Source: a virus (taxonomy: Duplodnaviria > Heunggongvirae > Uroviricota > Caudoviricetes). Taken from it: a DNA stretch of 60,485 bases. Positions within the stretch are counted from its first letter, which is position 1. Each line of letters opens with the position of its first letter. Shown here in pieces: positions 3,803 through 54,697 of the stretch. The stretch lies in IMG/VR virus record IMGVR_UViG_2671181056_000013, positions 1 to 60,485 of that record. One strand, given 5' to 3'. The notes under the pieces are model-generated. The model was not told the DNA's origin. It worked only from the letters and a program-made list of their open reading frames with translations, and searched no databases. The translations under genes and the position numbers were made by a program.

Positions 3803-5221
3803 ATGACTCAAGTCGCGAAGAAAATTCTGGTGACGTGCGCACTGCCGTACGCTAACGGCTCAATCCACCTCGGCCATATGCTGGAGCACATCCAGGCTGA
3901 TGTCTGGGTCCGTTACCAGCGAATGCGCGGCCACGAGGTCAACTTCATCTGCGCCGACGATGCCCACGGTACACCGATCATGCTGAAAGCTCAGCAGCTT
4001 GGTATCACCCCGGAGCAGATGATTGGCGAAATGAGTCAGGAGCATCAGACTGATTTCGCAGGCTTTAACATCAGCTATGACAACTATCACTCGACGCACA
4101 GCGAAGAGAACCGCCAGTTGTCAGAACTTATCTACTCTCGCCTGAAAGAGAACGGTTTTATTAAAAACCGCACCATCTCTCAGCTGTACGATCCGGAAAA
4201 AGGCATGTTCCTGCCGGACCGTTTTGTGAAAGGCACCTGCCCGAAATGTAAATCCCCGGATCAATACGGCGATAACTGCGAAGTCTGCGGCGCGACCTAC
4301 AGCCCGACTGAATTGATCGAGCCGAAATCGGTGGTTTCTGGCGCTACGCCGGTAATGCGTGATTCTGAACACTTCTTCTTTGATCTGCCCTCTTTCAGCG
4401 AAATGTTGCAGGCATGGACCCGCAGCGGTGCGTTGCAGGAGCAGGTGGCAAATAAAATGCAGGAGTGGTTTGAATCCGGCCTGCAACAGTGGGATATCTC
4501 CCGCGACGCGCCATACTTTGGTTTTGAAATTCCGAACGCGCCGGGCAAATATTTCTACGTCTGGCTGGACGCACCGATTGGCTACATGGGTTCTTTCAAG
4601 AATCTGTGCGACAAGCGCAGCGACAGCGTAAGCTTCGATGAATACTGGAAGAAAGACTCCACCGCCGAGCTGTACCACTTCATCGGTAAAGATATTGTTT
4701 ACTTCCACAGCCTGTTCTGGCCTGCCATGCTGGAAGGCAGCAACTTCCGCAAGCCGACCAACCTGTTTGTTCATGGCTATGTGACGGTGAACGGCGCAAA
4801 GATGTCCAAGTCTCGCGGCACCTTTATTAAAGCCAGCACCTGGCTGAATCATTTTGACGCTGACAGCCTGCGTTACTACTACACTGCGAAACTCTCTTCG
4901 CGCATTGATGATATCGATCTCAACCTGGAGGATTTCGTTCAGCGTGTGAATGCCGATATCGTGAACAAAGTGGTTAACCTGGCCTCTCGTAATGCGGGCT
5001 TTATCAACAAGCGTTTTGACGGCGTGCTGGCAAGCGAACTGGCTGACCCGCAGTTGTACAAAACCTTCACTGATGCCGCTGAAGTGATTGGTGAAGCGTG
5101 GGAAAGCCGCGAATTTGGTAAAGCAGTGCGCGAAATCATGGCGCTGGCTGATCTGGCTAACCGCTATGTCGAAGTGGCCTTAAACAATTTGTTTTCTACC
5201 TTTTCTTGTTCGAGAAAATAA
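3803..5221 (+). pseudogene. metG: metG 5' portion (about 456 codons) fused in frame to phage-like sequence, ending after 16 unrelated codons
   Basis: Class I aaRS motif HLGH and KMSKS are present. MetG-like sequence stops at 5172/5173 where the full copy continues ...RYVDEQAPW; here it reads ...[19 protein letters not shown]. Confidence 0.8.
5183..5220 (+). promoter_or_regulatory. about 40-bp phage promoter-like element, copy 1 of 3 (AAACAATTTGTTTTCTACCTTTT...GAGAAAATAA)
   Basis: A 23-nt stretch is identical to 12203-12225 and near-identical to 16091-16113; possible -35 TTGTTT and -10 GAAAAT/GATAAT. Confidence 0.4.
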
Positions 5222-5706: not shown

Positions 5707-5718
5707 GAGAACTGATTA

Positions 5719-5745
5719 GGCGGTGCAATGCACCGCCTTTTTATC
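5719..5745 (+). terminator. intrinsic terminator (GGCGGTGCA-A-TGCACCGCC plus T-run)
   Basis: Perfect 9-bp stem followed by TTTTT, placed between the convergent umuD'-like gene and mrp copy B. Confidence 0.6.
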
Positions 5746-53034: not shown

Positions 53035-53185
53035 GCCTCAATCCTCTGGTGTGCTTTTCTGCGATGCGGCTACACCGCTATACATCAGCCGTGATGATCT
53101 CATGACCGAAGAGACTGAAAGGGAAGTACTTTTTCACAATATGATAGGGGAGCGATTGTGTGGATGGGGCAGAAAAGTGCCATAA
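52955..53185 (+). CDS. o-spanin (Rz1-like lipoprotein), overlapping Rz in another frame
   Basis: Signal peptide with lipobox TISGC inside the +1 frame of the i-spanin gene; extends past the i-spanin stop. Confidence 0.6.
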   Translation: MKHLMSYGAKMLLLFIMSCTISGCVIKPQSSGVLFCDAATPLYISRDDLMTEETEREVLFHNMIGERLCGWGRKVP

Positions 53186-53359
53186 TAAAAGCGGAATTTT
53201 CTAACATAAAATTTGCATATTATTAGAGCACAAGGTAGATTTGAAGCATGGATGTCAAGTAAATCATACCTTGTTTTAATAAATCGACGCATACTCGTAG
53301 CCTCTAAACCGACAAGGTCGCCGCTATGACATAAAGTTATTACCGGCTAAGGTGGAAAC

Positions 53360-53758
53360 ATGCATACTGCGCTTAACGCATCTCGTTCTATTCAGACGAT
53401 AAGAGACTGTACCAAGATGATCGCATCGGTTCCGTTGCGGCATTGGAATGACTCGCTCCAAATTCGTGAAATGAACAAACCGGGTATGCTTAAGGATCAG
53501 CGTTTCATCGTTAACCTTAAAAGTGACGTTGAAGAAGGCAAGTTTACCATCAAATTGTTTGCAGAAATGATGGTGCTCAACAATCGGTTACGTTTTCTTG
53601 TTAAGCCAGAAAAACAGTTTCCCGATGTTGTGCGTTGTGAACAGGATGCTTTCTATGAGATTGAAAGCAAAATAGCTAAATTTATCAAAGATAAATACCG
53701 CGTAGATGTTAAAATAGCGAAACTGGATTCATCTACGGATATGCGGCTTGCTAACTAA
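53360..53758 (+). CDS. hypothetical protein (132 aa), first gene of a two-gene cassette
   Basis: AT-rich promoter-like region upstream; GGTGGAAA RBS; stop abuts the next start. Confidence 0.55.
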   Translation: MHTALNASRSIQTIRDCTKMIASVPLRHWNDSLQIREMNKPGMLKDQRFIVNLKSDVEEGKFTIKLFAEMMVLNNRLRFLVKPEKQFPDVVRCEQDAFYEIESKIAKFIKDKYRVDVKIAKLDSSTDMRLAN

Positions 53759-54535
53759 ATGTCACCATCATTCATAGCAGAGTATTCAAAAGTACTGTCT
53801 GATTTCCCTGAATGTGAAGCAAGAGAGAAAATCAGAGTTGGCTACATGGTTAACTCTGATTTTTCTGTTTTACGGCTCACAGAGTGGTCCTTGATCGGGT
53901 CTAATTATGATTACTGTTTGACAGTGTCATTTGTAGGCGACCCTGATGCAGATTGGCTTCAAGAACATGCAATGGATCTTGACGAGCAGGGGCATTCAGA
54001 AGAAGAGATAGTTCATAGTGTTCGTGAATTAGTTGGTGATGAGCAAGAAGATGATGACGGCATTCAGATCGCCAGGTTCGTCTACAAACGATTCCAGTTT
54101 CGCTCACAAAAAGGCTCTCACCTTGGGGTCCAGATTAAAGGGGCATTTGTAACCCCTTCAAAGGAACAAAAGGGACTTGCTAGAAGAGTTTACAATTTTC
54201 TTCTCAATTGGCATGACCATGTAGTATGTGATGACCATCAGACGGTTTACGGTGCCAGAATTTGGGCTGTAGGTATGCTTTTGGTCGGTCGTGTCCAAAT
54301 CTATGACAATTTAAATAAAGAATTTATAGATGTCCTTGTTGAAGGTGGTATTGGGCAGAATGGCGTCAAACCGTGGGATGCGCTGCTATTGAACAGCGAG
54401 GCTCAGTTACGTCACTGGAACCCTATGGCTGTCAGCATAGACCCATCTAGTCAGATTCTCACCATCATCTCCAAAGAAGACCGCCACATTGAAGTGGGCG
54501 TTACAACATTTGATGCCAGGTCTACCAACCACTAA
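53759..54535 (+). CDS. hypothetical protein (258 aa), second gene of the cassette
   Basis: Start immediately follows the upstream stop; terminator 9 nt after its own stop. Confidence 0.6.
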   Translation: MSPSFIAEYSKVLSDFPECEAREKIRVGYMVNSDFSVLRLTEWSLIGSNYDYCLTVSFVGDPDADWLQEHAMDLDEQGHSEEEIVHSVRELVGDEQEDDDGIQIARFVYKRFQFRSQKGSHLGVQIKGAFVTPSKEQKGLARRVYNFLLNWHDHVVCDDHQTVYGARIWAVGMLLVGRVQIYDNLNKEFIDVLVEGGIGQNGVKPWDALLLNSEAQLRHWNPMAVSIDPSSQILTIISKEDRHIEVGVTTFDARSTNH

Positions 54536-54543
54536 TTCCTAAA

Positions 54544-54565
54544 CCCGCTACGGCGGGTTTTTTGT
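54544..54565 (+). terminator. intrinsic terminator (CCCGC-TACG-GCGGG plus T6)
   Basis: Hairpin plus TTTTTT. Confidence 0.7.
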
Positions 54566-54697
54566 TATTAAGTCCTTACCAAATCTATGTACCTATCATT
54601 AAACCTTTACACAGCAGCCGTAGGCATTTAGGCTATATCACATATAAGAAAACAAGTTGTTTCAGACAATAATAATAGACGCAAAGGAAACTCTCCA

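What the first reader, a model, noticed from the sequence alone, without database searches (positions are those of the whole stretch)
53190..54570. Two-gene cassette of unrecognisable proteins inserted between lysis and partition modules
The ORFs at 53360-53758 and 53759-54535 abut with no gap, are preceded by an AT-rich promoter-like region and followed by a strong terminator. The unit sits between the spanin genes and parA-like, a typical location for morons carrying defence or anti-defence cargo. Neither protein shows a motif I can assign.
Basis: inference. Interest (0 to 1): 0.6.

Follow-up and report, generated by a model that had tools for sequence, protein, structure and literature searches.

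The report
Mobile two-gene cryptic acetyltransferase cassette
The two "unrecognisable" genes form a self-contained, swappable operon whose larger protein is a very divergent GNAT-type acyltransferase; it sits in the plasmid-prophage slot that other relatives fill with a classical acetyltransferase toxin-antitoxin pair, so it is probably a new addiction or defence module.

Summary
ORF A (53360-53758, 132 aa) and ORF B (53759-54535, 258 aa) abut (TAA-ATG), lie between the spanin genes and parA, and end at a clean terminator (54541-54560). The window is an SSU5-like phage-plasmid, 100% identical here to a Shigella sonnei plasmid.

The pair is not core. It fills a 1.4-kb variable slot (about 53170-54590). 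Relatives carry there 30-40%-identical A-B alleles, a TacA/GNAT toxin-antitoxin pair, or a single unrelated ORF (pHCM2).

A-B travels as one unit. A lies directly upstream of B in all 61 loci that hold both genes. These include lambdoid prophages, Acinetobacter plasmids and stand-alone chromosomal sites. A occurs alone only in P1-like phages.

The operon has its own conserved promoter-like element and a conserved structured leader that is not in Rfam.

Best reading (about 0.4): a new GNAT-based toxin-antitoxin-like addiction or abortive-infection module, with B as effector and A as neutraliser. No toxicity, enzyme activity or defence phenotype is shown. No known defence model matches.

The parts
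53170..54590 (+). Variable cargo slot of the SSU5-like backbone, holding the whole cassette
   Evidence: blastn of the window against eight relatives loses homology at about 53161-53169 and regains it at about 54586-54591 (at 54540 in relatives that carry A-B alleles). GC is 41.8%, against 45.9% and 48.0% in the flanks.
53213..53241 (+). Promoter-like element: -35 TTGCAT (53213-53218), 17-nt spacer, -10 TAGATT (53236-53241)
   Evidence: TTG and TA.A are invariant in the alignment of upstream regions from SSU5-like, lambdoid and stand-alone chromosomal copies. The element is seen again in 28 unique leaders. It falls below the threshold of the consensus scanner. No transcription data exist.
53285..53359 (+). 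Conserved structured 5' leader: P2 (53285-53300, degenerate in this allele), conserved box CTCGTAGCCTCT (53294-53305), P3 hairpin (53308-53318), P4 (GCCG 53320-53323 with CGGC 53344-53347), then SD AAGGTGGA (53349-53356)
   Evidence: Nucleotide conservation exceeds that of the coding sequence between alleles. RNAalifold and pair counts give 96% of cells paired against 34-57% in slid controls, and P3 has compensatory changes in 4 of 5 pairs. Single-sequence folds give z -1.7 to -2.9 in 5 of 6 alleles, but only -0.64 in this window's allele. There is no Rfam match.
53360..53758 (+). Gene A, 132 aa: small partner protein with a degenerate GNAT-like fold (putative neutraliser)
53759..54535 (+). 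Gene B, 258 aa: divergent GNAT-fold acyltransferase (putative effector)
54541..54566 (+). Intrinsic terminator of the operon
   Evidence: AAACCCGC-TACG-GCGGGTTT followed by a T run. It is shared by relatives with A-B alleles and absent from relatives with other slot contents.

Best explanation
The region is an autonomous, horizontally exchanged two-gene operon. Its order is promoter-like element, structured leader, gene A, gene B, terminator. It sits in a variable cargo slot between the lysis and partition modules of an SSU5-like phage-plasmid. B is a highly divergent GNAT-fold acyl-CoA-dependent acyltransferase. A is a small, co-evolving partner with a degenerate GNAT-like fold that has lost the CoA-binding glycine loop. 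I propose that the pair works like a type II toxin-antitoxin or abortive-infection module. B would acylate an essential cell component, by analogy with aminoacyl-tRNA acetylation by TacT and AtaT. A, translated first and coupled to B, would hold B inactive by direct binding. Loss of the plasmid-prophage, or an incoming phage, would free B, which would stabilise the element or abort infection. Orphan A genes in P1-like phages would then act as stand-alone neutralisers. Shown here: the operon anatomy, the slot variability, the mobility, the strict A-then-B linkage, the co-divergence and B's GNAT fold. Inferred: enzymatic activity, A-B binding, toxicity, and the addiction or defence role.
For: (1) Slot exchange. 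In pS2-S1K81-2 the flanks are nearly identical to the window (ParA 100%, endolysin 98.7%), yet A is 31% and B 30% identical. The same slot holds TacA (PF08681, E 5e-26) plus a GNAT toxin in pM-64-1161, and unrelated single ORFs in pHCM2 and Klebsiella plasmids. (2) Linkage. Every B-anchored locus has A immediately upstream on the same strand. These are L001, L003-5, L009/10, L016/17, L021-24 and L026-29. In addition, 40 of 40 complete A-anchored IMG/VR loci have B downstream. In most alleles the genes overlap by 16 nt; here they abut. (3) Co-divergence of A and B gives Pearson 0.93 over 703 comparisons. (4) Autonomy. The pair is a lone island among housekeeping genes in Pectobacterium, Pseudescherichia and Enterobacter. 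It lies downstream of Q in a Serratia lambdoid prophage and next to int in PhiR12_1. It is on 110-kb and 10-kb Acinetobacter plasmids. (5) The decay pattern is the one expected for a toxin with its antitoxin. B is frameshifted in the PhiR12 phages, and A survives alone, sometimes in two copies, in P1-like phages. (6) B's GNAT fold, motif A, and invariant polar residues Q125 and D158 at the expected active-site strands. (7) GNAT toxins with an upstream antitoxin gene are an established plasmid-maintenance device (PMC9177977, PMC6519299).
Confidence: 0.4

Rival explanations
1. A and B form a heteromeric acyltransferase (pseudo-GNAT plus GNAT, like tandem-GNAT enzymes). It would modify a host or phage macromolecule to the element's advantage, for example a counter-defence enzyme in the manner of AcrVA5 or Mom, with no toxin-antitoxin behaviour.
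Against: Stand-alone copies among housekeeping genes and on a 10-kb non-phage plasmid are hard to reconcile with a phage-specific counter-defence role. Orphan A genes without B in P1-like phages argue against an obligate two-subunit enzyme.
Confidence: 0.2
2. The pair is a lysogenic-conversion or resistance determinant. B would acylate and inactivate a small-molecule toxin (an antibiotic, microcin or aminoacyl-nucleotide), as AAC, MccE or RimL-type GNATs do, and A would be an accessory factor.
Against: Known resistance GNATs act alone and need no dedicated co-evolving partner. Extreme allelic divergence at one conserved slot and orphan A genes are not expected for a detoxifying enzyme. B does not reach the gathering threshold of any resistance family.
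Confidence: 0.12
3. The toxin-antitoxin polarity is reversed. The small upstream protein A would be the toxin and the GNAT protein B the antitoxin, as described for E. coli YjhX/YjhQ (own knowledge).
For: The gene order, small protein first and GNAT second, matches yjhX-yjhQ. A has invariant polar residues compatible with an activity.
Against: A occurs alone, even in two copies, in P1-like phages. B is the gene found disrupted, in the PhiR12 phages. This is the opposite of what is expected if A were the toxin.
Confidence: 0.1
4. The pair is an ordinary accessory of the neighbouring lysis or partition modules, or an inert remnant with no selected function.
For: It is co-oriented with the lysis genes and parA, and no function is shown.
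Against: It is absent from pHCM2 and many other SSU5-like elements that lyse and partition normally. It is present far from any lysis or par genes. Both reading frames are intact across 25-99% identity, with invariant residues. It has its own conserved regulatory region.
Confidence: 0.05

Closest known systems
Type II GNAT/RHH toxin-antitoxin systems (TacAT, AtaRT, KacAT, ItaRT, GmvAT)
   Same: Both are two-gene operons with the small gene first and a GNAT-fold protein second. Both are carried on plasmids and prophages. A bona fide TacA/GNAT pair occupies exactly this slot in sister phage-plasmids. These toxins acetylate aminoacyl-tRNA and stabilise plasmids (PMC9177977, PMC7595197, PMC6519299).
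   Different: B is 258 aa rather than about 170 aa, has an extra N-terminal beta/alpha region and fails all Pfam GNAT thresholds. A is not a DUF1778/RHH protein and has no DNA-binding fold. There is no detectable sequence relation. The canonical catalytic Tyr appears to be replaced by Trp.
Tandem or paired GNAT enzymes with one degenerate domain (e.g. MshD; own knowledge)
   Same: An active GNAT is combined with a GNAT-like module that has lost the CoA-binding loop.
   Different: Here the two modules are separate polypeptides from a mobile operon. A also occurs without B.
HipBST (own knowledge): the antitoxin HipS corresponds to a sub-domain of the toxin's ancestral fold
   Same: The concept is shared: a toxin neutralised by a small protein that resembles part of the toxin's own fold.
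   Different: HipBST is a kinase system and is unrelated in sequence and fold. It has a third, DNA-binding component.
YjhX/YjhQ (own knowledge)
   Same: A small protein gene followed by a GNAT gene acts as a toxin-antitoxin pair.
   Different: There the GNAT is the antitoxin. No homology was tested or seen, and the orphan-A pattern argues against that polarity here.
Phage GNAT-fold counter-defence enzymes (AcrVA5, Mom; own knowledge for function)
   Different: They are single proteins with no A-like partner, and they are not found as islands in bacterial chromosomes.
Phage morons
   Same: It is a self-contained unit with promoter and terminator, lower GC content, and variable presence at a fixed position. 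The positions include downstream of Q and next to int in lambdoid phages.
   Different: 'Moron' describes the genomic behaviour only and says nothing about mechanism.

Membership tests
GNAT (Gcn5-related N-acetyltransferase) superfamily: protein B | GNAT alpha/beta fold | tested here: met
GNAT superfamily: protein B | Motif A (Q/R-x-x-G-x-G/A) between beta4 and alpha3, which binds the CoA pyrophosphate | tested here: met
   V131-T-P-S-K-E136-Q-K-G139-L-A141-R is in register with the canonical VxPxxQ/RxxGxG/A. Other subfamilies carry Q-S-S-G-L-G (alignments). Position 1 is E, not Q/R, in this allele.
GNAT superfamily: protein B | Match to a curated GNAT sequence model above threshold | tested here: inconclusive
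   The window protein matches no Pfam or NCBIfam family. Among 45 relatives, 5 hit Acetyltransf_1 (best E 2e-5), 3 hit Acetyltransf_10 and 1 hits Acetyltransf_7.
GNAT superfamily: protein B | Acyl-CoA-dependent transferase activity | not testable with these tools
   Biochemistry is needed. Invariant Q125 and D158 hint at an active site.
GNAT superfamily: protein A | GNAT fold with a CoA-binding loop | tested here: inconclusive
Type II GNAT/RHH toxin-antitoxin (TacAT/AtaRT/KacAT) | Antitoxin of the DUF1778/TacA ribbon-helix-helix family | tested here: not met
   A and 65 relatives give no PF08681 hit. The predicted fold is a mixed beta/alpha domain. The genuine TacA of L006 scores E 5e-26.
Type II GNAT/RHH toxin-antitoxin | Compact toxin of about 160-180 aa recognisable as GNAT by sequence | tested here: not met
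   B is 258 aa with no Pfam hit. hhalign against the L006 toxin gives probability 0.3%.
Type II GNAT/RHH toxin-antitoxin | Catalytic tyrosine in alpha4 (A-x-x-F-Y-x-x-x-G-F) | tested here: inconclusive
   A by-eye alignment with the L006 toxin puts W169 (I-W-A-V-G) at that position. Y164 is nearby but is not conserved across the family. No structural superposition was available.
Type II GNAT/RHH toxin-antitoxin | Small gene upstream, adjacent or overlapping, co-transcribed | tested here: met
   TAA-ATG junction here and a 16-nt overlap in most alleles. One promoter-like element and one terminator.
Type II GNAT/RHH toxin-antitoxin | Toxicity of the second gene, neutralised by the first | not testable with these tools
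   Only indirect evidence exists: B is frameshifted in the PhiR12 phages and orphan A genes occur in P1-like phages.
Phage moron / variable cargo cassette | Variable presence at a conserved position among related elements | tested here: met
   Boundaries lie at about 53165 and about 54590. The alternative contents are shown. B-family genes are in 263 enterobacterial plasmids, against 733 plasmids that match the flanks.
Phage moron / variable cargo cassette | Own promoter and terminator | tested here: inconclusive
   The terminator is clear. The promoter is inferred from conservation only and is sub-consensus. There are no transcript data.
Known anti-phage defence systems (PADLOC-DB 2.0) | Match of either protein or its relatives to a defence-system model | tested here: not met
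   The window proteins give no hits. Relatives give only scattered weak hits, such as PDC-S39 in 5 of 66 A relatives with best E 0.009. A survey found no known defence system in pWPMR2-like S. sonnei phage-plasmids (bioRxiv 10.1101/2025.09.12.675607).
Rfam RNA families (for the leader) | Covariance-model match | tested here: not met
   No match at E <= 1 in 53100-53420. The only two weak hits lie over the terminator.

The most novel reading that the evidence does not exclude
A-B would be the founding member of an undescribed toxin-antitoxin or abortive-infection family. In it, a long, cryptic GNAT acyltransferase is held in check by a pseudo-GNAT protein rather than by an RHH antitoxin. Expression would be gated by a dedicated structured leader RNA that sequesters the ribosome-binding site. 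The orphan A genes of P1-like phage-plasmids would be counter-measures that disarm the B toxin of competing SSU5-like elements.
Probability: 0.25. Interest if true: 0.75.

Novelty: new variant of a known kind. Interest (0 to 1): 0.6.

Why it matters
SSU5-like phage-plasmids are common in Shigella sonnei, Salmonella Typhi, E. coli and Klebsiella. The S. sonnei clade that this window matches is reported to carry no recognised defence or resistance cargo (bioRxiv 10.1101/2025.09.12.675607). If the cassette is an addiction or defence module, it would help explain the stable vertical inheritance of these elements. It would also add a new partner type to the GNAT toxin family. The pair further gives a clean natural example of cassette exchange at one hotspot, with flanks up to 100% identical and cargo about 30% identical. 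Finally, it reveals an uncatalogued structured leader RNA that can be tested directly.

Tried and rejected
- Direct sequence searches of A and B against Pfam, NCBIfam, PADLOC and PDB found nothing.
- Profile searches of both families against PDB gave only sub-threshold hits, including AAC(2') for B at E about 0.14.
- hhalign found no relation between A and B, or between B and the TacT-like toxin. Claims of paralogy or TacT membership were therefore dropped.
- PADLOC on all relatives gave only noise-level hits.
- The Rfam scan found no family for the leader.
- Foldseek of A against viral structures was not significant.
- The afdb50 fold library was unavailable.
- The search for related loci with the broad B alignment failed for lack of a conserved stretch. 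The narrower alignment returned only 5 genomes.
- A search for repeats that could be recombination sites at the slot boundaries found nothing convincing. Exchange is best explained by homologous recombination in the flanks.
- Xer-type pdif sites were found on the Acinetobacter 10-kb plasmid, but they do not tightly bracket the pair.
- Literature searches found no paper on these genes.
- Core lysis or partition accessory: rejected because of the distribution.
- O-antigen acetylase: rejected because no membrane segments are evident by eye (no prediction tool was run) and the fold is wrong.

Full report
**What the window is.** The 1.38-kb region is 98.4% identical to Escherichia phage PhiR41_1, a 108-kb circular element. 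A 3.7-kb stretch around it is 100% identical to Shigella sonnei plasmid LR213459.1. The gene order is tail fibres, holin-like gene, endolysin, Rz/Rz1, the cassette, parA, a parB-like gene. This is the order found in Salmonella phage SSU5. The window is therefore an SSU5-like phage-plasmid of the kind common in S. sonnei. A recent survey reports no recognised defence or resistance cargo in that clade (bioRxiv 10.1101/2025.09.12.675607, read).

**Checking the observation.**
- ORF A (53360-53758, 132 aa) and ORF B (53759-54535, 258 aa) are present and abut as TAA-ATG.
- A has a strong Shine-Dalgarno sequence.
- A clean intrinsic terminator follows B at 54541-54560.
- The upstream intergenic region is AT-rich: 36.8% GC against 46.2% for the window.
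- The flanks are spanins and ParA, as stated.
- Plain searches against Pfam, NCBIfam, PADLOC and PDB find nothing for either protein.
- Both proteins belong to PHROG families of unknown function, 2594 and 3307, and both have many homologues. They are real genes.

**The cassette is swappable cargo, not core.**
- blastn against eight relatives places the edges of a variable slot at about 53165 and about 54590.
- Relatives that carry A-B alleles also share the terminator and a block just upstream of A.
- Divergence inside the slot is extreme compared with the flanks. Against E. coli plasmid pS2-S1K81-2, ParA is 100% and endolysin 98.7% identical, but A is 31% and B 30%. SSU5 and Klebsiella phage p4727 show the same pattern.
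- Other relatives fill the slot differently. pM-64-1161 has a TacA-family antitoxin (PF08681, E 5e-26) plus a Pfam-recognisable GNAT toxin on the opposite strand.
- pHCM2 and two Klebsiella plasmids have a single unrelated ORF of 172-184 aa, one of them with a helix-hairpin-helix motif.
- B-family genes occur in 263 enterobacterial plasmids, whereas 733 plasmids match the flanks.
- The cassette has 41.8% GC against 46-48% in the flanks.

**The pair moves as a unit among very different elements.**
- It occurs in SSU5-like phage-plasmids.
- It lies next to the integrase of lambdoid PhiR12 phages, where B is frameshifted.
- It lies directly downstream of the Q antiterminator in a Serratia prophage.
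- It is on 110-kb Acinetobacter plasmids and on a 9.9-kb mobilisable OXA-72 plasmid. There the upstream protein matches the A profile at 98% probability.
- It occurs as a lone two-gene island among housekeeping genes: between rsmI and a LigB-family gene in Pectobacterium, between pgl and a pectinesterase gene in Pseudescherichia vulneris, and at another site in Enterobacter.
- Every locus retrieved through B has A immediately upstream on the same strand. All 40 complete IMG/VR loci retrieved through the start of A have B downstream.
- Across 38 distinct pairs, the identities of A and of B co-vary with Pearson 0.93.
- In most alleles A's last codons overlap B's first codons by 16 nt.
- A alone occurs only in P1-like phage-plasmids (D6, RCS47 and related contigs), sometimes in two copies flanking hot.
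- The B family is small. It has 49 representatives at 50% identity among 1.84 billion proteins, all about 240-260 aa, with no fusions.

**What the proteins are.**
- The alignment shows GNAT motif A in register, V131-T-P-S-K-E-Q-K-G139-L-A141-R. Other subfamilies carry the canonical Q-x-x-G-x-G.
- Five of 45 family members reach Pfam Acetyltransf_1, best E 2e-5.
- Q125 and D158 are invariant across the family, and Y145, Q161, W169 and W206 are nearly so. This argues for a conserved active site.
- B is thus a cryptic GNAT-fold acyltransferase with an extra N-terminal beta/alpha region and an acidic loop.
- The position of the usual catalytic Tyr appears to be Trp. This rests on a by-eye alignment, so the chemistry may be non-canonical.
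- A keeps 'V-x-P-x-x-Q' but replaces the glycine loop with F-P-D-V-V.
- A has no sequence-level support, no profile similarity to B, and no significant match among viral structures.
- I read A as a degenerate GNAT-like protein, with moderate confidence.

**Regulatory region.**
- Aligning upstream regions from unrelated contexts shows an invariant TTG...17 nt...TA.A element. In the window it reads TTGCAT at 53213-18 and TAGATT at 53236-41.
- An approximately 85-nt leader follows, and it is better conserved at the nucleotide level than the genes themselves.
- Across alleles it consists of a GCUACG/CGUAGC hairpin, a GC hairpin whose sequence varies with compensatory changes, and a GCCG...CGGC stem that ends at the Shine-Dalgarno sequence.
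- Counted on 17 distinct leaders, 96% of cells pair against 34-57% in slid controls. Four of five pairs in the variable hairpin have changes on both sides.
- Individual leaders fold with z -1.7 to -2.9, often closing a junction that includes the Shine-Dalgarno sequence. The window's own allele is degenerate and folds weakly, z -0.64.
- RNAalifold instead pairs the invariant GUAGCCUCU box with the Shine-Dalgarno sequence. The two pictures are not resolved.
- Rfam has no match.
- An 18-nt pattern across the ribosome-binding site retrieved 43 viral contigs, and all of them are A-B loci.

**Interpretation.** The anatomy and behaviour are those of a selfish two-gene module.
- The pair is strictly linked, translationally coupled and co-evolving.
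- It hops between phages, plasmids and chromosomes.
- It is exchanged at a hotspot next to the partition genes, where sister elements carry a classical GNAT toxin-antitoxin pair.
- It decays in the direction expected for a toxin (B disrupted or lost) and an antitoxin (A retained).
- GNAT toxins that acetylate aminoacyl-tRNA and stabilise plasmids are well established (PMC9177977, PMC7595197, PMC6519299).

I therefore favour a GNAT-based toxin-antitoxin-like addiction or abortive-infection module, with B as effector and A as a pseudo-GNAT neutraliser. My confidence is about 0.4.

It is not a member of the TacAT/AtaRT family. The RHH antitoxin, the compact toxin and the sequence relation were all tested and not met. 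The claim is 'works like', not 'is a'.

The rivals are:
- a heteromeric modifying enzyme, for example for counter-defence (0.2);
- a small-molecule resistance determinant (0.12);
- reversed toxin-antitoxin polarity, as in YjhX/YjhQ (0.1);
- an inert or lysis/partition accessory (0.05).

The stand-alone chromosomal copies weigh against a phage-specific counter-defence role. The orphan A genes weigh against an obligate two-subunit enzyme and against A being the toxin. A's invariant polar residues and its lack of a DNA-binding domain weigh against a simple antitoxin.

**Verdict.** The moron reading is supported. The defence or anti-defence role is unproven. The main gains are three: the identification of B as a cryptic GNAT, the definition of the exchange slot and its alternative contents, and the discovery of a conserved leader. 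The cassette is a new variant of a known kind, a GNAT-centred two-gene mobile module, and it is worth an experiment.

Noticed in passing
window 53285-53359 (leader) and 53213-53241 (promoter-like element): A conserved, apparently structured 5' leader RNA precedes gene A in 28 distinct alleles. It has three hairpins, compensatory changes in one of them, and an invariant CTCGTAGCCTCT box that can pair with the Shine-Dalgarno region. It matches no Rfam family. This window's own copy is partly degenerate.
   Followed up: partly
window 54087-54118 (inside gene B); L073 1503-1534: A 32-nt spacer in the type I-E CRISPR array of E. coli SC418 (NZ_LR778147.1, next to iap and cas2e) is identical 32/32 to gene B. 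The triplet on the PAM side of the target strand is GTG, which is not a canonical interference PAM.
   Followed up: partly
L013 5345-5704 (-) and 5977-6351 (+); L015 same; L002 5001-5351: P1-like phage-plasmids (D6, RCS47 and related contigs) carry one or two orphan copies of gene A without gene B. They lie beside hot, humD and phd-doc, and they lack the conserved leader.
   Followed up: partly
L006 1641-2439; L019 1484-2035; L007 1677-2198; L018 1471-2028: The same slot in sister phage-plasmids holds either a TacA/GNAT toxin-antitoxin pair or a single ORF of 172-184 aa on the opposite strand. That ORF has a helix-hairpin-helix motif in one Klebsiella plasmid and no Pfam match in pHCM2. Its function is unknown.
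   Followed up: partly
window 53828-53839 / 53852-53863: A perfect 12-nt inverted repeat followed by a T-rich run lies inside the 5' part of gene B, and the scanner flagged it as terminator-like. Its conservation in other alleles was not checked.
   Followed up: no
L004 713-913 and 889-1479: In the lambdoid PhiR12 phages gene B is split by a frameshift into two ORFs of 66 and 196 aa, while gene A is intact. This could be a pseudogene or a sequencing error.
   Followed up: no
L055 about 870-1040: One IMG/VR contig has the leader region partly duplicated in tandem upstream of gene A.
   Followed up: no
L016 (pAba5845a) 274-301, 4773-4800, 5712-5739: The 9.9-kb Acinetobacter OXA-72 plasmid that carries an A-B pair has three Xer-type pdif sites. 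blaOXA-72 is bracketed by two of them. The A-B pair lies in a larger segment with a transposase gene and an HTH gene.
   Followed up: partly
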